Position numbers and translations under genes: made by a program. A DNA stretch of 64,000 bases. Origin: an uncultured Eubacterium sp. Lineage in GTDB: Bacteria > Bacillota > Clostridia > Oscillospirales > CAG-272. A model generated the notes under the pieces. The model was not told the origin of the DNA. It did no database searches and saw only the letters and a list, made by a program, of their open reading frames with translations. The stretch lies in NCBI GenBank assembly GCA_900544285.1, contig UQUT01000005.1:5251-69250 (forward strand). Reading direction: 5' to 3'. Below, in pieces: positions 25,436 to 50,307 of this stretch; position 1 is the stretch's first letter; each line of letters begins with the position of its first letter.

Positions 25436-25786
25436 GTGGACCCGAGGAGAATCGAACTCCTGTCCGAAAAACGATCCGCGGGGCTTTCTCCGAGCGCATT
25501 CCGTCTTTTGAAATTCCCTCCTCACAGCGCCGGCAGACAGGCTCTGTGTTTCGGTAGCTTTTTAATGCGTGACGGCGTCAAAAACTAAAAAGCCGTTCAC
25601 GTTCATCGCTGTGTTATGCCCAAACCGAAGCCGCGATACTCATCGGCAGGACACCCGCGCCCTTAGGCAGCGAGAGCTAATTTATTATTGTTAGCGTTTA
25701 ATTTTAGGTTGCACAGTTTTTGGGAGCTTGTGCGGCTCCGCTCGCTTACCCTGTTTCATATTCCCCGTCGAAACCTTTACGGGCCC
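25434..25786 (-). ncRNA. ssrA: tmRNA (SsrA)
   Basis: Minus-strand 5' end GGGCCCGTAAAGGTTTCGACGGGG and 3' end GGAGTTCGATTCTCCTCGGGTCCACCA. The acceptor stem has the G3:U pair. Internal tag frame GCT AAC AAT AAT AAA TTA GCT CTC GCT GCC TAA (25695-25663). Lies directly downstream of smpB. Confidence 0.9.
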
Positions 25787-38013: not shown

Positions 38014-38031
38014 TGCATATCGATATATGCA
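38014..38031. promoter_or_regulatory. Inverted repeat, possible operator upstream of the mdh operon promoter
   Basis: TGCATAT-cgat-ATATGCA, about 24 nt upstream of the -35. Confidence 0.2.
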
Positions 38032-38054
38032 TAACCGATATGAAAAATCAGCAA

Positions 38055-38083
38055 TTGCATAATCGCTCGATTTATGATAGAAT
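38055..38083 (+). promoter_or_regulatory. Sigma-A type promoter of the mdh-fumC-hdr-flx-frd operon
   Basis: TTGCAT, a 17-nt spacer ending in TGa, then TAGAAT. Confidence 0.45.
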
Positions 38084-38115
38084 ATGTAAAACAAATATTT
38101 TGGGAGGTATTTTTT

Positions 38116-39060
38116 ATGAACAAAATCTCAATCATCGGAACCGGAAGCGTAGGTTCCACAATCGCGTATTCCCTTGCGATACTCGGAATGGCGTCTGAAA
38201 TAGTCATGATAGACATAAACAGCGAGAAGGCTCTCGGCGAAGCGCTCGATATCAGACAGGGCACTCCCTTCTGCAGTCCCTGCTCCATTTATGCCGGAAG
38301 CTACCCCGACGCGGCAGGCTCGAACATCGTCATTCTCACATCGGGCATTGCAAGAAAACCCGGTCAGTCGCGCCTTGAGCTCGCGCAGACAAACGTAAAC
38401 ATAACAAAGAGTATTATCCCCGAGATAACAAAATACGCTCCGGACGCAACATACATAATCGTAAGCAACCCCGTGGATATCCTTACTTATACATTCCACA
38501 AATTTTCGGACCTGCCCGAAAACCGCATAATCGGCTCGGGAACAATCCTCGACACCGCACGTCTCCGCGCAAGACTCTCCGAATATTACAACATCAGCCA
38601 GAGCAACGTTCACGCTTATGTTTTCGGCGAGCACGGCGATTCCTCATTCATTCCGTGGTCGGTTGCGAACATCTCAAACGTGCCGATTTCAAAATGCAAT
38701 GAACTGATTTCCCTTCCGGGCATGGAAAGCCCCGCTCTCAATTTTGACGAAATCGAACAGTACGTAAGAAAGTCCGGCGGCAGAGTCATCGCGCGCAAGG
38801 GCGCAACCTTCTATGCGGTATCGATTTCCGTTTGCCACATATGCAAATGCCTGCTTGCGGGAATAGATACAACGATGACCGTTTCCACAATGATGCACGG
38901 CGAATACGGCATAGACGACGTCTGCCTCAGCACTCTCAACCTTGTCGGTCACGACGGCATAAGAGGCAAGGTAAACGTACCGCTGACGGATGAAGAAACC
39001 GCAAAGCTCCGTTTCAGCGCGGACACCCTCAAGGGCGTAATCAAGAACCTCAATATCTGA
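38116..39060 (+). CDS. mdh: LDH-family 2-hydroxyacid dehydrogenase, predicted malate dehydrogenase
   Basis: IIGTGSVGST Rossmann motif and GEHGDS catalytic loop. The substrate-selectivity position reads GIARKPGQSR, with Arg where LDHs have Gln102. GGGAGG RBS. Start moved to MNKISI. Confidence 0.6.
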   Translation: MNKISIIGTGSVGSTIAYSLAILGMASEIVMIDINSEKALGEALDIRQGTPFCSPCSIYAGSYPDAAGSNIVILTSGIARKPGQSRLELAQTNVNITKSIIPEITKYAPDATYIIVSNPVDILTYTFHKFSDLPENRIIGSGTILDTARLRARLSEYYNISQSNVHAYVFGEHGDSSFIPWSVANISNVPISKCNELISLPGMESPALNFDEIEQYVRKSGGRVIARKGATFYAVSISVCHICKCLLAGIDTTMTVSTMMHGEYGIDDVCLSTLNLVGHDGIRGKVNVPLTDEETAKLRFSADTLKGVIKNLNI

Positions 39061-39090
39061 TAATATCCGGTAAAAGGACGGTAAGCAAAG

Positions 39091-40467
39091 ATGGAATATC
39101 GCATTGAACACGACTCTATGGGCGAGGTCAAAGTCCCCGCCGACCGCCTGTGGGCAGCACAGACGGAAAGAAGTCATGAAAACTTCAGAATAGGCGTTGA
39201 CATCGAAACAATGCCGAGAGAAATAACACACGCATTCGGTATCCTCAAAAAGGCGGCGGCAATGGCAAACGCCGAGCTCCGCCCCGAAAAAATGACGGCG
39301 GAAAAGCTCGCTGTCATCTCGCAGGCGTGCGACGAGGTGATATCCGGAAGTCTCAATGACCACTTCCCTCTCGTCGTATGGCAGACGGGCTCGGGCACGC
39401 AATCGAACATGAACGCAAACGAGGTCATCGCAAACAGAGCAAACCAGCTCGCCGGAGCAAAGCTCTGCCACCCGAACGACGATATAAACATGAGCCAGTC
39501 GTCAAACGACACCTTCCCGACGGCGATGCACATCTCCGCCGTCACCGCAATAGAGGATAAGCTCCTCCCCGCCATTGAAGCTCTCATCGCAACCTTCAAA
39601 CGCCTTGAAGAGGAAAACGAAGGCATAGTCAAGTCCGGCAGAACGCACCTTCAGGACGCAACGCCGATTAAATTCAGCCAGGAAATTTCGGGCTGGAGGT
39701 CAAGCCTTGAAAGAGACGCGGAGCTTCTCCGCATGGCGGTAAAGCCGCTTTATGAGCTTGCTCTCGGCGGAACGGCTGTCGGCACGGGACTCAATGCTCC
39801 CAAGGGCTTTGCGGAGCTCGTTGCGGAAAAGGTTGCTCTTTTGACGGGCAAGCCCTTTGTGACGGCTGAAAACAAATTCCACGCGCTCACCTCAAAGGAT
39901 GAGCTTGTATTCGCTCACGGCGCAATAAAAGCCACCGCATGCGATATGATGAAAATAGCAAACGACGTCCGCTGGCTGGCATCCGGTCCGCGTGACGGTC
40001 TCGGCGAGATACACATTCCCGAAAACGAGCCCGGCTCGTCGATAATGCCCGGAAAGGTCAACCCGACGCAATGTGAAGCCGTAACGATGGTTGCCGTTCA
40101 GGTCATGGGCAATGACGTTGCCGTCGGCATGGCGGCTTCGCAGGGCAACTTTGAGCTCAACGTTTTCATGCCCGTCGCCGCATATAATTTCCTTCAGTCC
40201 GCCCGCCTGCTCGCGGAAGCAATAGTTTCCTTCAACGTAAACTGCGCTGTCGGCATAACGGCAAACAAGGAAAAAATGTATCACAATCTGCACAATTCCC
40301 TCATGCTCGTCACGGCGCTCAACCCTTACATCGGTTATGAAAACGCCGCAAAAACGGCAAAGAAGGCTTTCAAGGACAACATTTCGCTGAAAGAAGCGTG
40401 CGTTGAGCTCGGCTTCCTCACGGCGGAAAAATTCGATGAGGTGTTCCATCCCGAGCAGATGGTATAA
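39091..40467 (+). CDS. fumC: Class II fumarate hydratase
   Basis: 458 aa. MEYRIEHDSMGEVKVPADRLWAAQT and the GSSIMPGKVNPTQCEA signature. Confidence 0.9.
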   Translation: MEYRIEHDSMGEVKVPADRLWAAQTERSHENFRIGVDIETMPREITHAFGILKKAAAMANAELRPEKMTAEKLAVISQACDEVISGSLNDHFPLVVWQTGSGTQSNMNANEVIANRANQLAGAKLCHPNDDINMSQSSNDTFPTAMHISAVTAIEDKLLPAIEALIATFKRLEEENEGIVKSGRTHLQDATPIKFSQEISGWRSSLERDAELLRMAVKPLYELALGGTAVGTGLNAPKGFAELVAEKVALLTGKPFVTAENKFHALTSKDELVFAHGAIKATACDMMKIANDVRWLASGPRDGLGEIHIPENEPGSSIMPGKVNPTQCEAVTMVAVQVMGNDVAVGMAASQGNFELNVFMPVAAYNFLQSARLLAEAIVSFNVNCAVGITANKEKMYHNLHNSLMLVTALNPYIGYENAAKTAKKAFKDNISLKEACVELGFLTAEKFDEVFHPEQMV

Positions 40468-40485
40468 CAATTGACGGAGGTAAAT

Positions 40486-41298
40486 ATGAAAGTAAGTTAT
40501 TTCCCCGGCTGCACTCTCAAAACAAAGGCGAAGGATCTTGATCTTTATGCCCGCAGGAGCGCGGAGGCGCTCGGCATTGAGATGTGCGAAATTGAAAACT
40601 GGCAGTGCTGCGGAGGGGTATTCGTTTCGGCAAAGGACGAAATCGCTTCAAAGTTGTCAAGCGTTCGCGCGCTTATTGCCGCGCGTGACTCCGGCACTCC
40701 GCTTGTAACGGTATGCTCCGCGTGTCACAACATCATAAAGCAGACGAACGCCGCAATGCGGACGGATGAAGACTTTGCAAAAAAGGTCAACCTTTATATG
40801 TCGCAGGACAAAAACCCTTCCGAGCCTTATCACGGCGAGACTGCGGTATATCATTATCTTGAACTTCTGCGGGACACCGTCGGCTTTGACAAAATAAAAG
40901 AGGCTGTCAGAAATCCGCTCACCGGAAAGAAAATCGCCGCATATTACGGCTGTATGCTTCTCCGCCCGAACAAGGTAATGCGTTTTGACGACCCCGAAAA
41001 TCCGACGCTTATGGAAAACTTCATAAGAGCTATCGGTGCGGAGCCCGTCATCTATCCGCAGAGAAACGAATGTTGCGGCGGATACGTTGCTCTTGAAGAC
41101 GCAGAGCTTGCAAAGAAGAAGAGTCTTTCCGTAAGCGAAGGCGCAAAGGATCACGGCGCAGAGATGATTGTCACCGCATGCCCGCTCTGCAAATACAATC
41201 TTGTAAAGAGCGGAAGCGAAATTCCCGTTATATACTTTACCGAGCTTCTGGCAGGGGCGCTCGGCGTAAAGGAGGATAAAAATGCAGAACAAAAATGA
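40486..41298 (+). CDS. hdrB: Heterodisulfide reductase subunit B-like protein (two CCG domains)
   Basis: YFPGC...WQCCGG...VCSAC and YYGC...NECCGG...ACPLC, both CCG motifs complete. GGAGG RBS. Confidence 0.8.
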   Translation: MKVSYFPGCTLKTKAKDLDLYARRSAEALGIEMCEIENWQCCGGVFVSAKDEIASKLSSVRALIAARDSGTPLVTVCSACHNIIKQTNAAMRTDEDFAKKVNLYMSQDKNPSEPYHGETAVYHYLELLRDTVGFDKIKEAVRNPLTGKKIAAYYGCMLLRPNKVMRFDDPENPTLMENFIRAIGAEPVIYPQRNECCGGYVALEDAELAKKKSLSVSEGAKDHGAEMIVTACPLCKYNLVKSGSEIPVIYFTELLAGALGVKEDKNAEQK

Positions 41299-41674
41299 GC
41301 TTGTGCGCGAGCAGGTTCTCCGCATGAGCGGAGTAAATCCGAGAAAATGCATGCGTTGCGGCAAATGCTCGGCAACATGCCCGTCGTATGACGAAATGGA
41401 ATATCATCCTCATCAGTTTGTCTATATGGTCGAAAACGGCGATATCGAAACGCTGATGAATTCCCCCTCCGTTTACAAATGTCTTTCGTGCTTTGCCTGC
41501 GTCGACCGTTGTCCGAGAGACGTTGAGCCCGCAAAGCTGATCGAGGCGCTTCGCCTCTGCGTCATTCGCGAGAAGGACAAAAATCATATGACGGCGGACG
41601 ACATTCCGTCGCTTATAGACGAGGATATGCCCCAGCAGGCACTCGTCAGCGCTATGAGAAAATATTCAAAATAA
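41282..41674 (+). CDS. hdrC: Heterodisulfide reductase subunit C-like 2x[4Fe-4S] protein
   Basis: CMRCGKCSATCP and CLSCFACVDRCP. Overlaps hdrB by 17 nt. Confidence 0.75.
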   Translation: MQNKNELVREQVLRMSGVNPRKCMRCGKCSATCPSYDEMEYHPHQFVYMVENGDIETLMNSPSVYKCLSCFACVDRCPRDVEPAKLIEALRLCVIREKDKNHMTADDIPSLIDEDMPQQALVSAMRKYSK

Positions 41675-41692
41675 GAGAGGAGAAAACGATAA

Positions 41693-43687
41693 ATGCAGAG
41701 AATCGGAGTTTTTGTCTGCCATTGCGGCACTAACATTGCCGGCACGGTGGACGTCAAAGCCGTGGCGGAAGCACTGAAAAACGAACAGGGCGTTGTTTTC
41801 TCCACGGATTATCAGTATATGTGTTCCCAGTCGGGACAGAACATAATAAAAGAAGCAATCGCAGAGCACCATCTGACGGGTATCGTCGTATGCTCCTGCT
41901 CGCCCCGTATGCACGAGGTAACCTTCCGCAAAACGGCGGCTGCCGCAGGACTCAACCCCTATATGGTTGAAATTGCAAACATCCGTGAGCAGTGCTCGTG
42001 GGTACATAAGGATATGCCTATCGGAACGGAAAAGGCAATCATCCTTGCAAAAGCGGCTGTGGCAAAGGTCAACCTCAACGCTCCGCTGACACCGGGAGAA
42101 AGCCCCGTGACAAAGCGTGCGCTTGTTATCGGCGGCGGTATTGCCGGAATTCAGACAGCGCTTGACATTGCCGACGCGGGCTTCCCCGTCGACATTGTCG
42201 AAACAAAGCCGACAATCGGCGGCAAGATGGCGCAGCTTGACAAAACCTTCCCCACCCTTGACTGCGCGGCTTGTATCCTCACACCGAAAATGGTTGACGT
42301 TGCGCAGAATGAGAAGATACGCATTTTCTCATATTCCGAGGTTACGGACGTAAAAGGCTTCGTCGGCAATTTTGACGTAACGATAAAGCGCAAAGCGCGC
42401 TATGTAAAAGAGGATATCTGCACGGGTTGCGGACTCTGCACGGAAAAATGCCCGCAGAAGAAGGTTCCGAACGAATTCAACCTCGGTATGGATAATCGCC
42501 ATGCAATCTATATTCCCTTTGCGCAGGCAGTACCGAAGGTTGCAACAATCGACCCCAATTACTGCACAATGCTGAAAACAGGCAAATGCGGCGTATGCTC
42601 CAAGGTCTGCACCGCGGGCGCAATCGACTACAACGCAAAGGACGAATTCATTGAAGAAAAATACGGCGCAATCGTCGTCGCAACGGGCTTCAACCCCATT
42701 TCAATGGAAAAATTCGACGAGTTCGCATATTCGCAGTCAAAGGACGTCATCACCTCGCTTGAGCTCGAACGTCTGATGAACGCGGCAGGACCCACTGGCG
42801 GCACGCTTCTCCGTCCGTCCGACGGCAAGCACCCGCACACGATAGTTTTCGTTCAGTGCGTCGGTTCGCGTTGCGCGGCTTGCTCCGAAAAGGGCAAGGA
42901 ATACTGCTCAAAGATATGCTGTATGTACACGGCAAAGCATGCCATGCTCATACGCGACAAATATCCCGATACGGACGTATACGTTTTCTATATAGACGTC
43001 CGTACACCCGGCAAGAATTTTGATGAATTCTATCGCCGCGCCGTTGAAGAATACGGCGTGCATTATATAAAAGGTATGGTCGGCAAGGTCTGTCCGGACG
43101 GCGACAAGCTGAAGGTTCAGGCTTCGGACCTTATCTACGGAAAACAGCTCCATATCGACGCCGACCTCGTCGTTCTTGCGGCGGCTATCGAACCCGATAA
43201 GTCCGCAAGACACCTTGCAACTCTCCTTACGGCGAGCATGGACACAAACGACTTCTTCACGGAGGCTCATCCCAAGCTCCGTCCCGTTGAAAGTCCGACG
43301 GCGGGCGTGTTCCTCTCCGGAACATGTCAGGGCCCGAAGGACATTCCGGAAACGGTCGCTCAGGCAGGAGCCGCGGCTTCAAAGGTAATCGGGCTTCTCT
43401 GCAAAGACAAGCTGACAGGTAACCCCTGCGTCGCCCATCCGGACGAAATGATGTGCAACGGCTGCTCGACCTGCGAAAAGGTCTGCCCTTACGGCGCGAT
43501 CTCGTATATCGACAAGGAATTCCGCATGCCGGACAGAACAACAAAGGTTCGCCGCGTTGCAACGGTAAACGAGGCGGTATGTCAGGGCTGCGGCGCGTGC
43601 ACGGTCGCTTGTATGTCGGGCGCGATGGATCTGAGAGGCTTCTCAAGCAAACAAATAATGGCGGAGGTTGACGCAATATGCAAGTAA
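41693..43687 (+). CDS. hdrA: Heterodisulfide reductase subunit A-like flavoprotein
   Basis: 664 aa. N-terminal Cys domain (VFVCHCGTN...CSCSPRMHE...REQCSW), FAD fold VIGGGIAGIQTALDIADAG, inserted ferredoxin (CTGCGLCTEKCP, CGVCSKVC) and C-terminal ferredoxin (CNGCSTCEKVCP, CQGCGACTVAC). Confidence 0.85.
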   Translation: MQRIGVFVCHCGTNIAGTVDVKAVAEALKNEQGVVFSTDYQYMCSQSGQNIIKEAIAEHHLTGIVVCSCSPRMHEVTFRKTAAAAGLNPYMVEIANIREQCSWVHKDMPIGTEKAIILAKAAVAKVNLNAPLTPGESPVTKRALVIGGGIAGIQTALDIADAGFPVDIVETKPTIGGKMAQLDKTFPTLDCAACILTPKMVDVAQNEKIRIFSYSEVTDVKGFVGNFDVTIKRKARYVKEDICTGCGLCTEKCPQKKVPNEFNLGMDNRHAIYIPFAQAVPKVATIDPNYCTMLKTGKCGVCSKVCTAGAIDYNAKDEFIEEKYGAIVVATGFNPISMEKFDEFAYSQSKDVITSLELERLMNAAGPTGGTLLRPSDGKHPHTIVFVQCVGSRCAACSEKGKEYCSKICCMYTAKHAMLIRDKYPDTDVYVFYIDVRTPGKNFDEFYRRAVEEYGVHYIKGMVGKVCPDGDKLKVQASDLIYGKQLHIDADLVVLAAAIEPDKSARHLATLLTASMDTNDFFTEAHPKLRPVESPTAGVFLSGTCQGPKDIPETVAQAGAAASKVIGLLCKDKLTGNPCVAHPDEMMCNGCSTCEKVCPYGAISYIDKEFRMPDRTTKVRRVATVNEAVCQGCGACTVACMSGAMDLRGFSSKQIMAEVDAICK

Positions 43688-44112
43688 ACGAATATAAGCC
43701 CCTTATCGTGGCGTTTTGCTGTAACTGGTGCTCATATGCGGGAGCAGACCTTGCGGGAAATAACCGCCTGAATTACCCCGCCGATGTCAAAATCATCCGT
43801 GTTCCCTGCTCGTGCAGAGTAAACCCGATGTTCATTCTCCGCGCTTTTCAGAGAGGCGCGGACGGAGTTATAATCTGCGGTTGCCATCCGGGCGACTGCC
43901 ATTACACCTCCGGAAACTACTATACCCGAAGACGTATGTCTCTGCTCTTCTCCATGCTCGATTATCTCGGCATTGAAAGAGAGAGAACAAGAGTTGAGTG
44001 GGTATCGGCGGCGGAAGGCGCAAAATTCGCCGCAACAATGAACGATTTTGCGGAAAAAGTCGCCGCACTCGGCGAAAACAAGAGATTGGAGGACTTAAGA
44101 TGCAAGAAATAA
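43678..44112 (+). CDS. mvhD: MvhD/FlxD-like iron-sulfur protein
   Basis: VAFCCNWCSYAGADLAG...IRVPCSCRV...GADGVIICGCHPGDCHY. Overlaps hdrA by 10 nt. Confidence 0.8.
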   Translation: MQVNEYKPLIVAFCCNWCSYAGADLAGNNRLNYPADVKIIRVPCSCRVNPMFILRAFQRGADGVIICGCHPGDCHYTSGNYYTRRRMSLLFSMLDYLGIERERTRVEWVSAAEGAKFAATMNDFAEKVAALGENKRLEDLRCKK

Positions 44113-45092
44113 AACGTGCAGCTCTTATAAAAAGAGCTTCTGAACTGCTTTCAGACGGCACAGCGGACAGAGTCCTCGGCTGGAAGGCAGGCGAATTTGA
44201 CTATGACGTCACCCCTGCGGTGTTCCATAGCGCAGAGGAGCTTGAAAAGGATTTTGTATGGGGCGACTTCTGCGGCGCAAACTTTTCAAAATATCTCATA
44301 AAAGAAACTCAGAAGGGCGACGGAAAGGTTATCGTTTTTCTCAAGCCCTGCGACACATACAGTTTTAATCAGCTCCTCACCGAGCACCGCTTTGACCGCG
44401 AAAAGGTCTATGCAATCGGCATCCCCTGCGACGGTATGCTCGATATCACAAAGATAAAGTCCATGGCGGACGGCGTTTTATCCGTAAAGAGCGAAGGCGA
44501 CGAGGTTGAAATCGAAACGCTTTATGACGGCGTCATAAAAGAAAATAGAGAAAACCTCCTTCCCGACAGATGCGTTCATTGCAAGTCCAAAAAGCACGTT
44601 TCGTATGACGAGCTTATGGGAGAGGACGGAGAGGTTCTCGACGGCGGACGCTTCGACGAGGTTGAAAAGCTGGAAAAAATGACGGCTGACGAGCGCTTCG
44701 CGTTCTGGCAGGAAGAGCTCTCCCGTTGCATACGCTGCAACGCCTGCCGCGACGTCTGCCCCGCATGCACATGCGAAAAATGCGTTTTCGACAATCCGAA
44801 TTCCGGCGTTGAAAACAAAGCGGCGGCAAACTCCTTTGAGGACAGCATGTTCCACATCATCCGCGCGTTCCACGTTGCGGGAAGATGCACGGACTGCGGC
44901 GAATGCTCCCGGGTATGCCCTCAGCACATTCCGCTTCACCTCCTCAACCGCAAATTCATAAAGGATATAAACAGCTTCTACGGCGACTATCAGGCGGGAG
45001 AGACCGTCGGCAGTCGCGCGCCCGTCGTCAACTATTCGCAGGACGATATCGAGCCCTCGGAGGCTGTCGAAAGGGGTGGCGACAATGCGTAA
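44100..45092 (+). CDS. Fe-S protein, FlxB/FlxC / HydB / AsrA-like (2x[4Fe-4S])
   Basis: CIRCNACRDVCPACTCEKC and CTDCGECSRVCP. ATG at 44100, 6 nt after GGAGGA. Overlaps mvhD by 13 nt. Confidence 0.6.
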   Translation: MQEIKRAALIKRASELLSDGTADRVLGWKAGEFDYDVTPAVFHSAEELEKDFVWGDFCGANFSKYLIKETQKGDGKVIVFLKPCDTYSFNQLLTEHRFDREKVYAIGIPCDGMLDITKIKSMADGVLSVKSEGDEVEIETLYDGVIKENRENLLPDRCVHCKSKKHVSYDELMGEDGEVLDGGRFDEVEKLEKMTADERFAFWQEELSRCIRCNACRDVCPACTCEKCVFDNPNSGVENKAAANSFEDSMFHIIRAFHVAGRCTDCGECSRVCPQHIPLHLLNRKFIKDINSFYGDYQAGETVGSRAPVVNYSQDDIEPSEAVERGGDNA

Positions 45093-46110
45093 AATCTCAA
45101 TTGACAAACTGAATTCGCTTTTCTCCGCCATTGCGGAAAATGAAACGCTTTATCTCCCCGTCGACACGAAGGCGGGCGCGAGATTTGAAAAATGGCATGA
45201 CGGCGCAGTCCTTTCGGACGCGCTGAACACAGTCCGCAGCGCAAAGGACTTCTTCTTCCCGCAGACGGAAAATCTCATGGATTTCAAGGTCGACGGAAAG
45301 AATATAGAAATTATCGACACGAGAGAGGAATGTGAGGATTTCGTCCTCTTCGGCGTGCGCGCGTGCGACGTCAAAAGCTTTGAAATTCTGGACAGAGTAT
45401 TCCTCGCCGAGCCTGTCGACAGTTATTATAAAAACCGTCGCGAGCACGGCGTGATAATGTCGCTCGCATGCACAAAGCCGCACGAAACGTGCTTTTGCGG
45501 AACGTTCGGCATAGACGCTTCCTCCCCCGAGGGAGATATCGTCTGCCACATGACAGGCGACGCCCTCTGTATGGACGCAAAAACCGAAAAGGGCAAGGCT
45601 CTGCTTTCAAGGCTCGATTCTCTCACGGAGGAAACGGACGGAAAAGCCGTCGAAGAGCAGAAAAAGGTCACAAAGGAACGCCTTGCAAAGCTCCCGCTCG
45701 CGAGCCTTTCGGCGGACAGCTTCGGCGCGGGCAAAACGGAGAAATTCTTCGGCGCTCCCGAATGGAAGGAGCTTTCGCAGGCGTGTCTCGGTTGCGGAAC
45801 GTGTACCTTCGTCTGCCCGACGTGTCAGTGCTACGACATAAAGGACTTCAACACCGGTCACGGCGTAAAACGCTTCCGTTGCTGGGACTCGTGCATGTAT
45901 TCGGACTTTACGAAAATGTCCGCAGGTCAGCCGAGACTCACCCAGCTCGAACGCTTCCGTCAGAGATTCATGCATAAACTTGTGTATTATCCCACGAACA
46001 ACGGCGGACTCTTTTCGTGCGTCGGCTGCGGAAGATGTCTTTCCAAATGCCCCATTCAGATGAACATTGTAAAGGTAATGAAAAAGCTGGGAGGAAAAGA
46101 AAATGATTGA
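45085..46110 (+). CDS. Fe-S protein, HydB/AsrA/FlxB-C-like (2x[4Fe-4S])
   Basis: CLGCGTCTFVCPTCQCYD and CVGCGRCLSKCP. Overlaps the previous gene by 8 nt. An alternative GTG start is at 45076. Confidence 0.6.
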   Translation: MRKISIDKLNSLFSAIAENETLYLPVDTKAGARFEKWHDGAVLSDALNTVRSAKDFFFPQTENLMDFKVDGKNIEIIDTREECEDFVLFGVRACDVKSFEILDRVFLAEPVDSYYKNRREHGVIMSLACTKPHETCFCGTFGIDASSPEGDIVCHMTGDALCMDAKTEKGKALLSRLDSLTEETDGKAVEEQKKVTKERLAKLPLASLSADSFGAGKTEKFFGAPEWKELSQACLGCGTCTFVCPTCQCYDIKDFNTGHGVKRFRCWDSCMYSDFTKMSAGQPRLTQLERFRQRFMHKLVYYPTNNGGLFSCVGCGRCLSKCPIQMNIVKVMKKLGGKEND

Positions 46111-46936
46111 TGTAAAAGAACCTCTTATCCCGAAAATCGGCGTCGTTACCGATATCCGCATAGACACGCCCGACGTAAAGACTTTCAGAGTCGTTACGCC
46201 GGACGGCAAAAAGGCTTTTGAACACAAGCCCGGTCAGTGCGCAATGCTCTCCGTTCCCGGTGTGGGCGAGGCGATGTTTTCGATAACCTCCTCGCCGACA
46301 AATGAGGAATATATGGAATTCTCCATCAAAAAATGCGGCTGTGTGACAGAATGGCTCCATTCAATGGAAGTAGGTCAGCAGATAACAATCAGAGGTCCCT
46401 ACGGCAGACCGTTCCCCGTCGATACGGAATTTGTCGGCAAGGATATGCTCTTTATCGCGGGCGGTATCGGTCTTGCTCCGCTCCGCTCCGTCATAAACTA
46501 CTGCCGTCACTACCGCGACCGCTACGGAAAAATCGACATTGTTTACGGCTCCCGCAGCATGCAGGACCTTGTCGACTATAAAGAAATAATCGACGAATGG
46601 GCAAACGACGCAGGCGTGACCGTACACCTGACAATCGACCGCGAACAGCCCGAGTGGACGGGCCACGTCGGCTTTGTACCGAACTACGTAAAGGAGCTGG
46701 CATTCTCTCCGGATAAAATCGCAATTCTCTGCGGTCCCCCGATAATGATCAAGTTCACCCTTGCGGGACTTACGGAGCTCGGCTTTGAAAAAACGCAGGT
46801 CTATACAACGCTTGAGCTTCGCATGAAATGCGGTATCGGCAAATGCGGAAGATGCAACGTCGGCGCAAAATACGTCTGCAAGGACGGTCCCGTATTCCGT
46901 CTCGACGAGCTTGACGAGCTTCCCGACGAATATTGA
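46103..46936 (+). CDS. FAD/NAD(P)H-binding [2Fe-2S] oxidoreductase subunit (FlxA / HydG / AsrB / PyrK-like)
   Basis: FNR-like fold (AMFSITSSP, MLFIAGGIGLAPLRS) and C-terminal CGIGKCGRCNV...C. Overlaps the previous gene by 8 nt. Confidence 0.7.
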   Translation: MIDVKEPLIPKIGVVTDIRIDTPDVKTFRVVTPDGKKAFEHKPGQCAMLSVPGVGEAMFSITSSPTNEEYMEFSIKKCGCVTEWLHSMEVGQQITIRGPYGRPFPVDTEFVGKDMLFIAGGIGLAPLRSVINYCRHYRDRYGKIDIVYGSRSMQDLVDYKEIIDEWANDAGVTVHLTIDREQPEWTGHVGFVPNYVKELAFSPDKIAILCGPPIMIKFTLAGLTELGFEKTQVYTTLELRMKCGIGKCGRCNVGAKYVCKDGPVFRLDELDELPDEY

Positions 46937-46954
46937 TAAAAGGAGATATGCCAT

Positions 46955-47629
46955 ATGGAAAACATGGTTGATATATATCTGTTCGGCAAAAAATATTCCG
47001 TTCCGGACGATCTGACTATTATGCGCGCAATGGAATATGCGGGCTATCAGCTCGTGCGCGGTTGCGGCTGTCGTAACGGCTTTTGCGGCGCGTGCGCAAC
47101 AATCTATCGCATAAAGGGAGACAGAACTCTCCGCACCTGCCTTGCATGTCAGACGAAGGTTGAAAACAACATGTATGTTGCAACTCTTCCCTTCTTCCCT
47201 CTCATAAAGCAGGTTTACGACATTGAAAAAATCAAGCCGACAGAGCAGATAATGATGCAGCTCTATCCGGAAATATACGCATGCGTCGGCTGTAATGCCT
47301 GCACAAAGGCTTGCCCTCAGGGACTGAACGTAATGCAGTATATCGCTTACGCTCAGAGAGGCGAATACGAAAAGTGCGCGGAAGAGTCGTTTGACTGCGT
47401 AATGTGCGGAATATGCTCGTCACGCTGTCCTGCCGGAATATCTCATCCGCAGGTTGCAATGCTCGCGCGCCGTCTCAACGGCAAGTATCTCGCGCCGAAG
47501 TCCGAGCATCTTGAAAACCGCGTAAAAGAGATAAAGGACGGCACATTTACGGAGCTTCTCGAATCGCTCATGGGCAAGCCCATTGAAGAGATGAAAGAGC
47601 TTTACAACAACAGAGATATTGAAAAATAA
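46955..47629 (+). CDS. Succinate dehydrogenase/fumarate reductase iron-sulfur subunit-like protein
   Basis: N-terminal plant-type 2Fe-2S motif CRNGFCGACATIY...C, then CVGCNACTKACP and CVMCGICSSRCP. Confidence 0.7.
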   Translation: MENMVDIYLFGKKYSVPDDLTIMRAMEYAGYQLVRGCGCRNGFCGACATIYRIKGDRTLRTCLACQTKVENNMYVATLPFFPLIKQVYDIEKIKPTEQIMMQLYPEIYACVGCNACTKACPQGLNVMQYIAYAQRGEYEKCAEESFDCVMCGICSSRCPAGISHPQVAMLARRLNGKYLAPKSEHLENRVKEIKDGTFTELLESLMGKPIEEMKELYNNRDIEK

Positions 47630-47643
47630 GGGAGGGCAAAAAG

Positions 47644-49239
47644 ATGTATCCGGAAAAATTTCAGAAATCGCTTGCGGCTGTCGAAGCGGCAAGAGAAGCA
47701 AACACAGCGTATGAGCCCGCCCGTATGACGGCAAAGGAAAAGGAAGATCTGCTTGCGGCATATCATCCCGACTATAAAAAGAGCGAGTTTGCCACACTCA
47801 AAATCGGCGCAAACAAGGGAGAGTCCGTGCCGCACGAGCTTTGCGAAATGCTTCAGGCTCACAGCCGCATTTCCGCATCGGACGTCGACCTTTCGGACGT
47901 TGCGTATGACGTCGACGTTCTCATAATCGGCGGCGGCGGCGCGGGTGCCTCCGCAGCTATCGAAGCCGACAATGTCGGCGCAAAGACGATGATTGTCACA
48001 AAGCTGCGCATAGGCGACGCAAACACAATGATGGCAGAGGGCGGAATTCAGGCGGCGGACAAGCCGAACGACTCGCCCGCAATTCACTTTCTCGACGCTT
48101 TCGGAGGCGGTCATTTTGCCGCGAAAAAAGAGCTTCTCGAAAAGCTCGTATGCGACGCACCGGAAGCAATTCAGTGGCTCAACGACCTCGGGGTCGAGTT
48201 TGACAAGGCTCCCGACGGCACAATGATTACAACTCACGGCGGCGGCACGTCGCGCAAGCGCATGCACGCGGCAAAGGACTATTCCGGCGCAGAAATTATG
48301 AGAACGCTCCGCGACGAGGTTCTCAATCGCGGAATTCCCGTTGTCGACTTCACATCAGCCATCGAGCTTATCCTTGACGAAAACGGCAAGGCGGCAGGCG
48401 CGGTGCTTATGAATATGGAAACAAAAGAGCTGATGGTGGCAAGAGCAAAGACTGTCATCATCGCGACGGGCGGCGCGGGACGTATGCATTATCAGGGCTT
48501 CCCCACGTCAAACCATTACGGCGCGACGGCGGACGGTCTCGTTCTCGGTTACAGGGTCGGCGCAAAGCTGCTCTATGCGGATACGCTTCAGTATCACCCG
48601 ACGGGCGCGGCGTTCCCCCAGCAGATTTTCGGCGCACTTGTGACGGAAAAGGTACGTTCTCTCGGCGCAAAGCTCGTCAACCGTGACGGCAAGGTGTTCA
48701 TGCACCCGCTTGAAACGCGTGACGTTGCGGCGGCGTCGATCATCAGAGAATGTTCCGACCGTGACGAAGGCATAGACACGGGCAACGGCAAGGCTGTATG
48801 GCTTGACACGCCGATGATTGAAAAAATCGGCGGCGAGGGCACGATTGAGCGCAGAATTCCCGCAATGATGCGTATGTTCGGAACATACGGCATCGACATA
48901 AGAAAAGAGCCTATTCTCGTTTATCCGACGCTCCATTATCAGAACGGCGGACTTGACATTGACGTGAGCGGAATGACGACGAACGTCGAAAATCTCTTTG
49001 TCGCGGGAGAGGCTGTCGGCGGAATACACGGCAGGAACCGCCTTATGGGCAACTCCCTGCTCGATATAATCGTTTTCGGAAGAAGCGCCGGAAAGAACGC
49101 AGCCGAAAAATCAAAGGACGTGAAGGTCGGCGCGCTCACGCTTGACCATATCGCAAAATTCGACGCGGAGCGCGAGGCGGCAGGCATTGTCACAGACGCT
49201 GTTTCACCCAAACTCCTGCCCGATTACAGAAGAAAATAA
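47644..49239 (+). CDS. Fumarate reductase/succinate dehydrogenase flavoprotein-like subunit (soluble type)
   Basis: 531 aa. DVLIIGGGGAGASAA, TKLRIGDANTMMAEGGIQAA, LQYHPTG, GLFVAGEAVGGIHGRNRLMGNSL. Confidence 0.7.
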   Translation: MYPEKFQKSLAAVEAAREANTAYEPARMTAKEKEDLLAAYHPDYKKSEFATLKIGANKGESVPHELCEMLQAHSRISASDVDLSDVAYDVDVLIIGGGGAGASAAIEADNVGAKTMIVTKLRIGDANTMMAEGGIQAADKPNDSPAIHFLDAFGGGHFAAKKELLEKLVCDAPEAIQWLNDLGVEFDKAPDGTMITTHGGGTSRKRMHAAKDYSGAEIMRTLRDEVLNRGIPVVDFTSAIELILDENGKAAGAVLMNMETKELMVARAKTVIIATGGAGRMHYQGFPTSNHYGATADGLVLGYRVGAKLLYADTLQYHPTGAAFPQQIFGALVTEKVRSLGAKLVNRDGKVFMHPLETRDVAAASIIRECSDRDEGIDTGNGKAVWLDTPMIEKIGGEGTIERRIPAMMRMFGTYGIDIRKEPILVYPTLHYQNGGLDIDVSGMTTNVENLFVAGEAVGGIHGRNRLMGNSLLDIIVFGRSAGKNAAEKSKDVKVGALTLDHIAKFDAEREAAGIVTDAVSPKLLPDYRRK

Positions 49240-49260
49240 TCCAACCGGGGGAATGAAAAA

Positions 49261-49593
49261 ATGATAGTTGATCTTCTTGAAGCACTCACAATTTTCTGTT
49301 TCGGTCTTTCATGGCCGATATCGATCCGCAAGTCGCTCGTTTCACGCACAGCGAAGGGCAAAAGCCTCTTCTTTGAGGTATTCCTTCTCGTCGGTTACGC
49401 ATGCGGTATTGCAAAAAAGATTATTGAAGCAACAGGCGCATTCGGTGTAACGCCCAAATCCGGATTTATATTCATACTCAGCTTCTTCTTCTATGTGCTC
49501 AACTTTATTGAAATTTCAATTGACGTTGCGCTCTATTTCAGAAACAAAAAGCTGGACGAAGAAGCCGATCGCCTTGTAGCAGAAAATAAATAA
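49261..49593 (+). CDS. Small 3-TM membrane protein, PQ-loop/SemiSWEET-like
   Basis: 110 aa. GLSWPISIRKSLVSRTAKGKSLFF resembles the PQ-loop motif region. GGGGGA RBS. 21 nt after the frdA-like gene, with no intervening terminator. Confidence 0.35.
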   Translation: MIVDLLEALTIFCFGLSWPISIRKSLVSRTAKGKSLFFEVFLLVGYACGIAKKIIEATGAFGVTPKSGFIFILSFFFYVLNFIEISIDVALYFRNKKLDEEADRLVAENK

Positions 49594-49596
49594 AAC

Positions 49597-49636
49597 AAAG
49601 CGTCCCCGCATTTCTGCGGGGACGCTTTTATTTTAT
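49597..49636. terminator. Bidirectional terminator closing the operon
   Basis: GCGTCCCCGCA-tttc-TGCGGGGACGC followed by TTTTATTTT. Confidence 0.8.
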
Positions 49637-50307
49637 TCCGTTTGTTTTTTCTCTCTGAAAATCACCTTATAGATTATCACCCACCAGATAAATCCGAGGG
49701 GAATTGCGGCGAAAATATCAAGTATGGAATGTTGCTTTACGAAAACCGTCGACACGCATATGAGCACGCCGAGGACTATCGCCGCCGCAAGAAGCCACTT
49801 GTGCCGGCGGAGGGACTTGCAGTCTATGACCGCAAAAACTATCGCCATTGCGCCGAAGACGTGCGCACTGGGAAGGACGTTTGTATATGTATCGGCTGTG
49901 TAAATGCGCTTCATCATGAAGCAGAAAATGTTTTCTTTTCCCGTTATATCGGGGCGCATATCCTGATAGTTCGGGAAAATCGCGCAGATGAAAATCATCG
50001 TGAAAAACGTCGCGCCTATGTATATCATATATTTTTTGAAGCCCTTTGCGTCGCGGAAGATGAGATAAAGTCCGATAGCCGCAAGCGCGGGATACCAAAG
50101 CGAATACGGTATTGCAAAGTATTCGCAGAAAGGAATCTTGTCATCGAGCGGAATATGCGAAAGGAACATTTTGTCCGCCGGAAAGTCGTTCGGTATCAGC
50201 TTTTCAAGGATGAAAAAAGCGATGAGGTATGCGGGGAATATCAATACATACCAAATGTGCTTATAATATTTGTTTTTTATCGGATAAGAGTTTATTTCTT
50301 CTGTCAT
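49633..50307 (-). CDS. PAP2-superfamily membrane phosphatase
   Basis: 224 aa with 5-6 TM helices and a PSAH motif. Confidence 0.55.
   Translation of the reverse strand: MTEEINSYPIKNKYYKHIWYVLIFPAYLIAFFILEKLIPNDFPADKMFLSHIPLDDKIPFCEYFAIPYSLWYPALAAIGLYLIFRDAKGFKKYMIYIGATFFTMIFICAIFPNYQDMRPDITGKENIFCFMMKRIYTADTYTNVLPSAHVFGAMAIVFAVIDCKSLRRHKWLLAAAIVLGVLICVSTVFVKQHSILDIFAAIPLGFIWWVIIYKVIFREKKQTE

What the first reader, a model, noticed from the sequence alone, without database searches (positions are those of the whole stretch)
38055..49636. 12-gene operon joining Mdh-FumC-soluble FrdBA to HdrBCA-MvhD and Flx-like NADH modules: candidate electron-bifurcating NADH:fumarate reductase
Seen in the sequence:
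- One promoter-like site (38055) and one strong terminator (49597) bracket twelve plus-strand genes.
- Gene order is: mdh-like, fumC, hdrB, hdrC, hdrA, mvhD, two HydB/AsrA-like 2x[4Fe-4S] proteins, a HydG/AsrB/FlxA-like FAD/NAD [2Fe-2S] protein, frdB-like, frdA-like, and a small PQ-loop-like membrane protein.
- Gaps are at most 30 nt. Five junctions overlap (41282-41298, 43678-43687, 44100-44112, 45085-45092, 46103-46110), which suggests translational coupling and stoichiometric assembly.
- No membrane anchor (FrdC/D or a cytochrome b) is present.

Established knowledge:
- HdrA carries the bifurcating FAD in MvhADG-HdrABC.
- FlxABCD-HdrABC is an NADH-linked Hdr complex in anaerobic bacteria.
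- HdrB-type CCG domains replace the membrane anchor in archaeal thiol:fumarate reductase (TfrB) and in type E succinate dehydrogenases (SdhE).
- Fumarate/succinate is a high-potential acceptor comparable to crotonyl-CoA in Bcd-Etf.

Inference:
- The operon encodes oxaloacetate to malate to fumarate to succinate.
- The last step would be driven by NADH through Flx-Hdr, possibly with coupled ferredoxin reduction.
- Alternatively a thiol/disulfide shuttle could act at the intact HdrB CCG site.
- I do not know of a characterised bacterial enzyme with this composition.
Basis: partly seen in the sequence, partly recalled or inferred. Interest (0 to 1): 0.8.

Follow-up and report, generated by a model that had tools for sequence, protein, structure and literature searches.

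The report
Soluble fumarate reductase wired to Flx-Hdr
This is a real, highly conserved operon of gut Clostridia that joins malate dehydrogenase, fumarase and an anchor-less fumarate reductase to an NADH-oxidising Flx-Hdr module; it probably lets quinone-free bacteria make succinate while charging ferredoxin, but the same operon and idea were already published for Pseudoclostridium thermosuccinogenes and nobody has yet tested it biochemically.

Summary
Twelve plus-strand genes (38116-49593) run mdh, fumC, hdrB, hdrC, hdrA, flxD/mvhD, flxC, flxB, flxA, frdB, frdA and a small membrane protein. Gaps are at most 30 nt, five junctions overlap, and one strong terminator follows.

HMM, PDB and fold searches support every label except "PQ-loop". 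Catalytic and cluster-binding residues are invariant across relatives:
- FrdA keeps its His/Arg/His/Arg set and has Asn in place of the covalent-FAD His.
- FrdB keeps all 15 Cys and HdrB keeps its 10 CCG Cys.
- The Mdh carries the MDH-type Arg.

In 52 species-level genomes of gut and rumen Clostridia, the nine hdr/flx/frd genes are present in 52/52. All eleven enzyme genes are colinear in 47/52.

It is not new. The same operon is the co-regulated "succinate operon" of Pseudoclostridium thermosuccinogenes, with matching gene count, order and near-identical sizes. It was proposed in 2019-2020 to couple fumarate reduction to ferredoxin reduction. An analogous Hdr-Flx/TfrAB link was proposed for tubeworm symbionts.

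I found no biochemical proof and no solved structure.

Verdict: new member of a known, still hypothetical kind. Electron bifurcation is likely but unproven.

The parts
38017..38041 (+). Two conserved ATCGATA-type boxes just upstream of the -35: a perfect 10-bp palindrome ATATCGATAT (38017-38026) and ACCGATAT (38034-38041). Candidate operator.
   Evidence: Sequence read. The same boxes at the same distance from the -10 appear in about a dozen related species in the alignment. Function not tested.
38055..38083 (+). Promoter-like site: TTGCAT, 17 nt, TG-extended TAGAAT.
   Evidence: Read. Not listed by the consensus scan (the -35 matches only 3/6). A TGnTATAAT element with an upstream TTGCA is conserved in position in close relatives.
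38116..39060 (+). LDH-family dehydrogenase with MDH-type Arg (GIARKPGQSR). Inferred NADH malate dehydrogenase (oxaloacetate -> malate).
   Evidence: Pfam Ldh_1_N/Ldh_1_C. The LDH HMMs are above cut-off and the MDH HMMs below. Arg aligns with the Gln of LDH 4m1q. Arg is invariant in 47/47 orthologues. Substrate inferred, not shown.
39091..40467 (+). Class II fumarate hydratase (FumC).
   Evidence: TIGR00979 701 bits, above cut-off 665. Lyase_1 + FumaraseC_C.
40486..41298 (+). HdrB-like protein with two complete CCG motifs (the ORF is open from TTG 40471).
   Evidence: Pfam CCG x2. Similar scores to HdrB (148 bits) and to SdhE of methylmenaquinol:fumarate reductase (143 bits), both below cut-off. 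The ten motif Cys are invariant in 55/55.
41282..41674 (+). HdrC-like 2x[4Fe-4S] protein.
   Evidence: Fer4_17/Fer4_8. HdrC and QmoC models are the best hits.
41693..43687 (+). HdrA: FAD plus multiple [4Fe-4S], full length, of the type that carries the bifurcating flavin in methanogen enzymes.
   Evidence: 790 bits to the HdrA2 model. 687 bits, residues 3-661 aligned to 5-648 of the heterodisulfide reductase subunit A chain 5odc_A, with the Cys motifs visibly kept in the printed alignment.
43678..44112 (+). MvhD/FlxD [2Fe-2S] protein.
   Evidence: Pfam FlpD 187 bits, full model.
44100..45092 (+). FlxC-like Fe-S protein (2x[4Fe-4S]; distant AsrA/HydB relative).
   Evidence: Fer4_8/Fer4_9. Weak AsrA hit. 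ATG 44100 with a GGAGG RBS.
45085..46110 (+). FlxB-like Fe-S protein (AsrA/HydB/ShyB family).
   Evidence: Fer4_22 102 bits. ShyB 191, HydB 170, AsrA 145 bits.
46103..46936 (+). FlxA-like FAD/NAD(P)H-binding [2Fe-2S] protein. Inferred NADH entry site.
   Evidence: FAD_binding_6 + NAD_binding_1 + DHODB_Fe-S_bind. HydG and AsrB models.
46955..47629 (+). FrdB-like iron-sulfur subunit. It has an SdhB-type [2Fe-2S] motif (CRNGFCGAC...C) plus two CxxCxxCxxxCP motifs. It has no 3-Cys cluster motif and no CCG domain.
   Evidence: Sequence. Fer2_4 + Fer4. TfrB and dhsB N-terminal matches. SdhB chains at E~1e-6. All 15 Cys invariant in 75/75.
47644..49239 (+). FrdA-like flavoprotein. It has an ~87-aa N-terminal extension, no Succ_DH_flav_C domain, and Asn in place of the covalent-FAD His.
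   Evidence: FAD_binding_2 229 bits. TfrA is the best NCBIfam hit but below cut-off (326 vs 718). Alignments to FrdA/SdhA. AF2 model pLDDT 94.5. Best fold match E. coli FrdA 1kf6_A, E 5e-38. Catalytic H318/R359/H431/R466 invariant in 81/81; Asn127 in 80/81.
49261..49593 (+). Small three-helix membrane protein of unknown function. Accessory to the Frd module.
   Evidence: Hydropathy. AF2 model with three helices, pLDDT 82. No Pfam family. No fold match. 2855 homologues, none with a Pfam domain and all named ones called hypothetical. Present in ~18/52 operons. It also follows a fused FrdB-FrdA gene that has no Hdr/Flx upstream.
49597..49628 (.). Bidirectional intrinsic terminator.
   Evidence: 14-bp stem, 9 G-C pairs, T runs on both strands.

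Best explanation
One operon encodes the reductive C4 branch oxaloacetate -> malate -> fumarate -> succinate. The steps are an LDH-family malate dehydrogenase, FumC, and a soluble two-subunit fumarate reductase (FrdA with non-covalent FAD; FrdB with one [2Fe-2S] and two [4Fe-4S]). This reductase has no membrane anchor. It is instead built into a FlxABCD-HdrABC module.

Most likely mechanism:
1. NADH is oxidised at FlxA.
2. Electrons pass through FlxB, FlxC and FlxD to the FAD of HdrA.
3. They are split there. One goes uphill to ferredoxin through HdrA's ferredoxin domains. The other goes downhill through HdrC and HdrB to FrdB, the FrdA FAD and fumarate.
4. Net reaction: 2 NADH + fumarate + Fd(ox) -> 2 NAD+ + succinate + Fd(red).

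Reduced ferredoxin could then feed Rnf or a hydrogenase. That would give quinone-free Clostridia an energy yield from fumarate reduction.

Shown here: the genes, their domains, the conserved catalytic and cluster ligands, and the conserved linkage. Inferred: the substrates, physical assembly, the route of electrons, and bifurcation itself.

The operon is the gut-Clostridia counterpart of the published 'succinate operon' of Pseudoclostridium thermosuccinogenes.
For: Domains and residues:
- Domain assignments for all subunits.
- FrdA fold and active site: HPTG His, Arg359, His431 and Arg466 align with the E. coli FrdA/SdhA catalytic residues. The best structural match is E. coli FrdA. These residues are invariant in 81 sequences.
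- Asn replaces the covalent-FAD His in 80/81. By established knowledge of complex II this fits a reductase-only enzyme.
- HdrA is full length relative to the structurally solved heterodisulfide reductase HdrA (5odc), with the cluster Cys motifs visibly kept in the alignment.

Linkage:
- Translational overlaps link hdrB through flxA, and 14-21-nt gaps link flxA, frdB, frdA and orf12.
- hdr/flx/frd co-occur in 52/52 species-level genomes. All 11 enzyme genes are colinear in 47/52.
- An independent lineage carries hdrA-mvhD-hdrC-hdrB-frdB-frdA.
- FrdB, HdrC and HdrB map consecutively onto the single TfrB polypeptide model: positions 19-94, 133-221 and 374-469. This is a natural fusion that argues for physical contact.
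- In marine Gammaproteobacteria the same FrdBA pair is fused operonically to a NuoF-like NADH module. This shows the pair takes electrons from NADH-oxidising partners.

Literature:
- The P. thermosuccinogenes operon has the same gene number, order and sizes. It is highly expressed and co-regulated, and H2 suppresses succinate formation there (PMC7282089).

Thermodynamics (my calculation): with E0' of -320 mV for NADH, +33 mV for fumarate and about -450 mV for ferredoxin, the net reaction is about -43 kJ/mol.
Against: - No biochemical data exist for any member, and there is no solved structure of such a complex.
- Flx-Hdr itself has only genetic support for bifurcation, as far as I know.
- The intact HdrB CCG site normally handles a disulfide, so its role as a pure electron relay is an assumption.
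- A three-gene FrdBA-NuoF-like version shows that fumarate reduction by NADH does not in principle need bifurcation.
- NADH versus NADPH specificity, and the presence of Rnf or a hydrogenase in this genome, were not testable from the window.
Confidence: 0.55

Rival explanations
1. Non-bifurcating NADH:fumarate reductase. Flx-Hdr serves only as a long electron wire from NADH to FrdBA, with no ferredoxin reduction.
For: Fumarate reduction by NADH is exergonic by itself. Relatives of FrdBA pair with a simple NuoF-like NADH module. Bifurcation has not been demonstrated for any Flx-Hdr-Frd.
Against: It would need seven extra subunits. These include a complete HdrA whose N-terminal, inserted and C-terminal ferredoxin-domain Cys motifs are visibly kept, all under strong conservation (87-95% identity for HdrA among relatives). 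That is hard to explain for a mere wire. In P. thermosuccinogenes H2 suppresses succinate formation.
Confidence: 0.2
2. Thiol/disulfide shuttle. Flx-Hdr reduces a soluble disulfide (bifurcating to ferredoxin), and a Tfr-like FrdBA re-oxidises the thiols with fumarate.
For: The HdrB CCG motifs are intact and invariant. The best NCBIfam hit for FrdA is TfrA. A DsrC-like carrier was considered for Endoriftia.
Against: In TfrB the thiol site is its own CCG domains. FrdB here has none, and the operon holds a single CCG protein, so one of the two half-reactions lacks a site. No carrier gene is in the operon. CoM/CoB are not known in Clostridia (own knowledge).
Confidence: 0.1
3. Two independent enzymes that are merely co-transcribed. 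Flx-Hdr works on an unknown acceptor, and FrdBA receives electrons from another donor such as ferredoxin.
For: FrdBA occurs without Hdr/Flx in other lineages: Prochlorococcus and a fused FrdB-FrdA with no Hdr/Flx upstream on a short contig. Physical contact is not shown.
Against: Co-occurrence is 52/52 with fixed order. A second lineage places frdBA directly after hdrB. The TfrB fusion links FrdB-like and CCG domains.
Confidence: 0.1
4. The FrdA-like protein acts on another substrate (L-aspartate oxidase-like, or another enoate reductase). The operon is then not a fumarate reductase system.
For: NadB models score nearly as well as Frd models (267 vs 277-326 bits), and all are below cut-off. 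The protein lacks the C-terminal domain of FrdA/SdhA.
Against: It is paired with an SdhB-like Fe-S subunit, which NadB never has (own knowledge). fumC and mdh lie in the same operon in 50/52 and 47/52 genomes. The top structural match is E. coli FrdA.
Confidence: 0.05

Closest known systems
'Succinate operon' of Pseudoclostridium thermosuccinogenes (CDQ83_RS03365-03315; Koendjbiharie et al. 2020, PMC7282089; preprint 10.20944/preprints201912.0288.v1)
   Same: Same order and count: fumC, seven Flx-Hdr genes, two fumarate reductase genes, and a small hypothetical protein. Gene sizes nearly match: frdB 675 vs 675 nt, frdA 1602 vs 1596 nt, fumC 1365 vs 1377 nt, and the five-gene block 5347 vs 5244 nt. 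It was proposed there to couple fumarate reduction to ferredoxin reduction.
   Different: The window's operon starts with an extra mdh. The small last gene is 110 aa here versus ~82 aa there. The host here is a mesophilic gut bacterium. Sequence-level identity to the P. thermosuccinogenes proteins could not be computed here because those sequences were not retrievable.
FlxABCD-HdrABC of Desulfovibrio vulgaris (Ramos et al. 2015, as cited)
   Same: All seven subunit types are present: FlxA (FAD/NAD/[2Fe-2S]), FlxB and FlxC (AsrA/HydB-like), FlxD (MvhD), and HdrA, HdrB, HdrC.
   Different: The gene order is hdrBCA-flxDCBA. The neighbours are fumarate-pathway genes, not alcohol dehydrogenases. 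The proposed acceptor is FrdBA/fumarate rather than DsrC.
Thiol:fumarate reductase TfrAB of Methanothermobacter (Heim et al. 1998, cited)
   Same: A soluble, anchor-less fumarate reductase. TfrA is the best NCBIfam match for FrdA. The TfrB model is covered piecewise by FrdB, HdrC and HdrB.
   Different: Scores are far below the equivalog cut-offs. The FrdA C-terminal domain is missing and an N-terminal extension is added. The CCG domains sit on a separate protein. No CoM/CoB is expected.
rTCA clusters of Endoriftia and Thioflavicoccus with hdr-flx, korABCD and tfrAB (PMC6315080; PMC11636981)
   Same: Hdr-Flx genes are interspersed with fumarate reductase genes, and direct electron delivery to the reductase has been proposed. 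A 55%-identical FrdA sits in a kor-hdrA-mvhD-hdrC-hdrB-frdB-frdA cluster (L088).
   Different: The context there is autotrophic CO2 fixation with OGOR, not fermentative succinate formation. No mdh-fumC is in the same unit.
MvhADG-HdrABC of methanogens (PDB 5odc)
   Same: HdrA is full length (687 bits) with the cluster Cys motifs visibly kept in the alignment. MvhD, HdrB and HdrC are all present.
   Different: The electron donor module is Flx (NADH), not a [NiFe] hydrogenase. The terminal acceptor is proposed to be fumarate via FrdBA, not CoM-S-S-CoB.
Quinol:fumarate reductase / complex II (E. coli FrdABCD, PDB 1kf6)
   Same: The FrdA fold and catalytic residues match. FrdB has an SdhB-type [2Fe-2S] motif.
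   Different: There is no anchor and no covalent-FAD His. The Succ_DH_flav_C domain is absent. There are two 4-Cys cluster motifs instead of one [4Fe-4S] plus one [3Fe-4S].

Membership tests
Flx-Hdr-linked fumarate reductase operon ('succinate operon', P. thermosuccinogenes type) | One transcription unit with fumC, hdrBCA, flxDCBA, frdBA and a small hypothetical gene. | tested here: met
   for the window. for the published operon (gene count, order, sizes).
Flx-Hdr-linked fumarate reductase operon ('succinate operon', P. thermosuccinogenes type) | Sequence orthology to the P. thermosuccinogenes proteins. | not testable with these tools
The protein searches were saturated by closer gut homologues.
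Flx-Hdr-linked fumarate reductase operon ('succinate operon', P. thermosuccinogenes type) | Fumarate reduction coupled to ferredoxin reduction. | not testable with these tools
   Needs enzyme assays. No published assay was found.
FlxABCD-HdrABC | All seven subunit types are encoded together. | tested here: met
FlxABCD-HdrABC | HdrB has two complete CCG (Cx31-39CCx35-36CxxC) motifs. | tested here: met
   Sequence. Ten Cys invariant in 55/55.
Bifurcating-type HdrA | Full-length HdrA whose N-terminal, inserted and C-terminal Fe-S domains and FAD domain align to structurally solved HdrA. | tested here: met
   Residues 3-661 aligned to 5-648 of 5odc_A, 687 bits, with the Cys motifs visibly kept in the printed alignment.
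Complex II (QFR/SQR) | Flavoprotein with FAD_binding_2 plus the Succ_DH_flav_C domain. | tested here: not met
   Only FAD_binding_2 is found. The alignment to FrdA ends at FrdA residue ~416.
Complex II (QFR/SQR) | His for the covalent 8-alpha-FAD linkage. | tested here: not met
   Asn aligns with the His of SHT in FrdA/SdhA. Asn in 80/81 relatives.
Complex II (QFR/SQR) | Catalytic His/Arg/His/Arg for fumarate/succinate. | tested here: met
Complex II (QFR/SQR) | Membrane anchor subunits (FrdC/D, SdhC/D, or cytochrome b). | tested here: not met
   None in the operon. The only membrane protein is the accessory 110-aa ORF.
Thiol:fumarate reductase TfrAB | TfrA equivalog-level similarity. | tested here: not met
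   326 bits against a cut-off of 718, covering model positions 5-410 of 546.
Thiol:fumarate reductase TfrAB | Fe-S subunit carrying its own two CCG domains. | tested here: not met
   FrdB (224 aa) has no CCG domain. The CCG domains are on the separate HdrB.
PQ-loop / SemiSWEET (gene 12) | Match to the PQ-loop profile, or a SemiSWEET-like fold. | tested here: not met
   No Pfam PQ-loop hit at E<=10. Foldseek best E=1.2, with no SemiSWEET among the hits.
Malate dehydrogenase (LDH-like type) | Arg at the substrate-discriminating position (Gln102 in LDH). | tested here: met
   GIARKPGQSR aligned to GAAQKPGETR of LDH 4m1q. Arg in 47/47. The MDH HMM cut-offs are not reached, while the LDH ones are.

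The most novel reading that the evidence does not exclude
The nine Hdr/Flx/Frd proteins form a single soluble particle that is a flavin-based electron-bifurcating NADH:fumarate/ferredoxin oxidoreductase. HdrB's non-cubane clusters are repurposed as an electron relay to an anchor-less FrdBA. This would be the main way that hundreds of quinone-free gut and rumen Clostridia species conserve energy from succinate formation. FrdBA would be a portable acceptor module that different lineages plug into Flx-Hdr, Hdr-Kor or NuoF-like donors.
Probability: 0.5. Interest if true: 0.7.

Novelty: new member of a known kind. Interest (0 to 1): 0.5.

Why it matters
Succinate is a major cross-feeding metabolite in the gut. 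Textbook fumarate respiration needs menaquinone and a membrane-anchored reductase, which, to my knowledge (not checked here), most Clostridia lack.

If this complex bifurcates, it would explain how such bacteria both dispose of NADH and gain energy, through reduced ferredoxin feeding Rnf or a hydrogenase, while making succinate. It would also add fumarate to the short list of high-potential acceptors that drive flavin-based bifurcation.

The operon is very common:
- At least 595 species-level genomes hold a close FrdA relative.
- The exact protein from this window is listed in 845 blocks of the assembly collection.
- A cultured carrier exists, Yeguia hominis NSJ-40 (L013), so the hypothesis can be tested directly.

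The idea itself is already in the literature. The value here is breadth and a tractable test case, not a new concept.

Tried and rejected
- Literature searches for a biochemically characterised bifurcating fumarate reductase found none. The 2019 preprint itself is not in the held library.
- PDB sequence searches with FrdA and HdrA found no Flx-Hdr-Frd entry.
- The PQ-loop/SemiSWEET identity of gene 12 is rejected.
- I considered gene 12 as a FrdC/D-like anchor because of its size (110 aa, three helices). This is unlikely because it is missing from about two thirds of the operons. It is not excluded.
- The Na+-decarboxylase beta-subunit gene next door (36662-37789) is not part of the system. 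It is adjacent only in this species.
- Succinate oxidation (the reverse direction) is rejected. The FAD is non-covalent, and my calculation puts the reverse reaction at about +43 kJ/mol.
- A riboswitch or other known RNA element in the leader: Rfam finds only a tmRNA elsewhere in the window.
I compared gene sizes from the paper's supplement instead.

Full report

Yes. The ORF list shows twelve consecutive plus-strand genes between 38074 and 49593. Each has a Shine-Dalgarno-like sequence 5-10 nt before an ATG.

With the best starts, the gaps in order are 30, 3 (or 18 if hdrB starts at ATG 40486), -17, 18, -10, -13, -8, -8, 18, 14 and 21 nt.

The terminator at 49597-49628 has a 14-bp stem with 9 G-C pairs and T runs on both strands. 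It is the strongest site in a 16-kb scan and also ends the convergent PAP2 gene at 49633-50307.

The promoter-like site is TTGCAT (38055-38060), 17 nt, then a TG-extended TAGAAT (38078-38083). It fails the scan's threshold. However, an alignment of the regions upstream of mdh from related species shows a TGnTATAAT element with TTGCA upstream at the same place in about a dozen of them. Two conserved ATCGATA-type boxes precede it.

The first ORF should start at 38116, not 38074.

**2. What the genes are**

Pfam and NCBIfam results give the following.

| Gene | Main evidence |
|---|---|
| mdh | LDH/MDH-family dehydrogenase |
| fumC | Class II fumarase, above its equivalog cut-off |
| hdrB | Two CCG domains |
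| hdrC | HdrC-like 2x[4Fe-4S] |
| hdrA | 790 bits to the HdrA2 model |
| flxD | MvhD/FlpD |
| flxC, flxB | AsrA/HydB-like Fe-S proteins |
| flxA | AsrB/HydG-like FAD/NAD/[2Fe-2S] |
| frdB | 224 aa, [2Fe-2S] + 2x[4Fe-4S] |
| frdA | 531 aa, FAD_binding_2 |
| orf12 | 110 aa, no family |

Points worth detail:

- *mdh.* It scores above the cut-off of L-lactate dehydrogenase models and below those of MDH models. It nevertheless has Arg where LDHs have the substrate-discriminating Gln: GIARKPGQSR against GAAQKPGETR in 4m1q. That Arg is invariant in 47/47 orthologues. I read it as an LDH-like malate dehydrogenase. This is an inference from the classic Gln102Arg rule.
- *hdrA.* It aligns over its whole length (residues 3-661) to HdrA of the heterodisulfide reductase complex in PDB entry 5odc. 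The score is 687 bits, and the Cys motifs are visibly kept in the printed alignment.
- *hdrB.* It has both Cx(n)CCx(n)CxxC motifs, and the ten Cys are invariant in 55/55. It scores about equally against HdrB and against SdhE, the CCG subunit of methylmenaquinol:fumarate reductase (148 vs 143 bits).

**3. The fumarate reductase module**

FrdA is a divergent member of the FrdA/SdhA/NadB superfamily:

- Its best NCBIfam hit is TfrA, but far below cut-off (326 vs 718 bits).
- It lacks the C-terminal Succ_DH_flav_C domain.
- It has an ~87-residue N-terminal extension with no counterpart in solved structures. PDB chains begin aligning at query residue 81-92.

Alignments to M. smegmatis and E. coli SdhA and to E. 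coli FrdA show the catalytic His (QYHPTG), Arg (ETRDV), His (LHYQNGG) and Arg (GRNRL) in place. Asn aligns with the His that carries covalent FAD. These positions are invariant in 81 sequences, and Asn is present in 80/81.

An AlphaFold2 model built on a 27-sequence alignment is confident throughout, including the extension (pLDDT 94.5, pTM 0.93). Its best structural match is E. coli FrdA (1kf6_A, E 5e-38, TM 0.71).

FrdB has an SdhB-type CxxxxCxxC...C [2Fe-2S] motif and two CxxCxxCxxxCP motifs. It therefore binds two [4Fe-4S] clusters rather than one [4Fe-4S] plus one [3Fe-4S]. It has no CCG domain. All 15 Cys are invariant in 75/75.

By established knowledge of complex II, non-covalent FAD fits an enzyme that only reduces fumarate.

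**4. Is the linkage more than chance?**

A scan of one genome per species found at least 595 genomes with a close FrdA relative. The best 80 (81-92% identity) are all gut, rumen or caecal Clostridia. They include cultured Yeguia hominis NSJ-40, Congzhengia, Ructibacterium, Acutalibacteraceae and Oscillospiraceae MAGs.

In the 52 loci with enough upstream sequence:

- hdrB, hdrC, hdrA, mvhD, flxC, flxB, flxA, frdB and frdA are present in 52/52
- fumC is present in 50/52
- mdh is present in 47/52
- all eleven are colinear on one strand in 47/52
- gene 12 is present in only about 18/52

The exact FrdA protein of the window is listed in 845 blocks of the assembly collection, so the host is a very common gut organism.

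**5. The FrdBA pair elsewhere**

An all-against-library search shows that full-length relatives sharing the N-terminal extension fall into few clusters. Their genomic contexts are informative.

| Locus | Relative | Context |
|---|---|---|
| L088 | 55% identical FrdA | korDABG-hdrA-mvhD-hdrC-hdrB-frdB-frdA |
| L085 | 46-47% identical, marine Gammaproteobacteria/Thiotrichales | frdB-frdA followed, with overlapping stops, by a NuoF-like gene (Complex1_51K + NADH_4Fe-4S) |
| L089 | Prochlorococcus sp. MIT 1201 | frdA-frdB alone |
| L087 | Fused FrdB-FrdA, 727 aa | Followed by a 70%-identical gene-12 homologue; no Hdr/Flx upstream on a short contig |

So FrdBA looks like a portable soluble acceptor module that different lineages attach to different NADH- or Hdr-type donors. 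Gene 12 travels with Frd rather than with Hdr/Flx.

The NCBIfam TfrB model is matched piecewise by three separate window proteins: FrdB (positions 19-94), HdrC (133-221) and HdrB (374-469). A natural fusion therefore already joins these parts in one polypeptide.

**6. Mechanism**

The best-supported reading is this:

1. NADH is oxidised at FlxA.
2. Electrons travel via FlxB, FlxC and FlxD to the HdrA flavin.
3. There they bifurcate, to ferredoxin on one side and via HdrC and HdrB to FrdB, FrdA and fumarate on the other.

With standard potentials of -320, +33 and about -450 mV, the net reaction 2 NADH + fumarate + Fd(ox) -> 2 NAD+ + succinate + Fd(red) is about -43 kJ/mol (my calculation). That is comparable to Bcd-Etf.

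What is shown is the parts list, the conserved ligands and the conserved linkage. The electron route, physical assembly and bifurcation are inference.

Rivals:

- *Plain NADH:fumarate reductase.* This is possible. It makes the cost and conservation of a complete HdrA hard to explain.
- *Thiol shuttle.* This is weakened because only one CCG protein exists and FrdB lacks TfrB's thiol site.
- *Two unrelated enzymes.* This is weakened by 52/52 co-occurrence and by the second lineage with frdBA directly after hdrB.
- *Another substrate for FrdA.* This is weakened by the SdhB-like partner, by fumC and mdh in the operon, and by the FrdA-like active site.

**7. Comparison with what is known**

The operon matches the "succinate operon" of Pseudoclostridium thermosuccinogenes. 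That operon comprises fumarate hydratase, a seven-gene Flx-Hdr complex, a two-gene fumarate reductase and a small hypothetical protein. Those authors proposed that it couples succinate formation to ferredoxin reduction (PMC7282089, citing preprint 10.20944/preprints201912.0288.v1).

The paper's RNA-seq table gives the gene spans below. All are co-regulated, with FPKM values of 2400-12700 in the higher-expressing of the two CO2 conditions.

| Published gene | Span (nt) | Window counterpart (nt) |
|---|---|---|
| fumC | 1365 | 1377 |
| RS03360 | 783 | hdrB |
| RS03355 | 324 | hdrC |
| five-gene block | 5347 | 5244 |
| RS03325 | 675 | 675 (frdB) |
| RS03320 | 1602 | 1596 (frdA) |
| RS03315 | 249 | 333 (orf12) |

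Independently, Hdr-Flx genes interspersed with tfrAB and korABCD in tubeworm symbionts and Thioflavicoccus were proposed to pass electrons directly to the fumarate reductase (PMC6315080; PMC11636981).

I found no paper with enzyme assays. I also found no PDB entry of such a complex.

The system is not a member of canonical complex II. It has no anchor, no covalent-FAD His, no C-terminal flavoprotein domain and no 3-Cys cluster motif. It is not a member of TfrAB either, because scores are below cut-off and FrdB carries no CCG domains.

**8. Gene 12**

It is predicted to form three helices. It has 2855 homologues, none with a Pfam domain and all named ones called hypothetical. There is no Pfam match and no significant fold match. 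The PQ-loop label is not supported.

A role in succinate export was suggested for the P. thermosuccinogenes counterpart. A role in tethering the complex to the membrane is also possible. Both remain speculation.

**9. Verdict**

Its central idea is already published as a hypothesis in two other lineages, so it is a new member of a known, still uncharacterised kind.

What this analysis adds:

- the breadth of the operon in gut and rumen Clostridia
- the attached mdh
- the residue-level conservation
- the view of FrdBA as a portable module

Interest is moderate (0.5). A specialist would not be surprised. The system is abundant, a cultured carrier exists, and a single enzymological experiment would settle an open question.

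Noticed in passing
window 36662-37789 (-): A lone Na+-translocating decarboxylase beta subunit (OAD_beta, 511 bits) lies divergent from mdh, with no alpha or gamma subunit genes beside it. It is adjacent in same-species contigs, but in 80 related loci it was found only once, far from the operon.
   Followed up: partly
window 38017-38041 (+): A perfect 10-bp palindrome ATATCGATAT and a second ACCGATAT box sit just upstream of the -35. Both are conserved in position in about a dozen related species. This is a candidate operator for an unknown regulator of the operon.
   Followed up: partly
L085 9366-12891: Marine Gammaproteobacteria/Thiotrichales MAGs carry frdB-frdA (same family, 46-47% identity, same N-terminal extension) followed by a NuoF-like gene with overlapping stops. 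This is a candidate three-subunit soluble NADH:fumarate reductase.
   Followed up: partly
L089 8001-10357: Prochlorococcus sp. MIT 1201 (WP_413360575.1) has a frdA-frdB pair of this family (42-43% identity), with no obvious donor module next to it. This is unexpected in a cyanobacterium.
   Followed up: no
L087 5250-7682: A MAG encodes a fused FrdB-FrdA protein (727 aa) followed directly by a 70%-identical homologue of gene 12. No Hdr/Flx genes lie upstream. This links gene 12 to the Frd module.
   Followed up: partly
L088 811-9771: A contig of unknown origin (Logan SRR24270839) carries korDABG-hdrA-mvhD-hdrC-hdrB-frdB-frdA. This resembles the rTCA/Hdr clusters described for tubeworm symbionts, but with a different gene order.
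   Followed up: partly
window 25434-25786 (-): A tmRNA gene (Rfam 149 bits; tag peptide ANNNKLALAA).
   Followed up: yes
window 30425-32707 (-): A GH94-family glycoside phosphorylase (cellobiose/cellodextrin phosphorylase type). It fits a carbohydrate-fermenting host. The remaining neighbours looked at are mostly housekeeping: an AddB-like nuclease (ADDB_N/PD-(D/E)XK domains), gyrase/topoisomerase IV-type subunits, RNase J, a RadA-like ATPase, and a few unannotated proteins.
   Followed up: no
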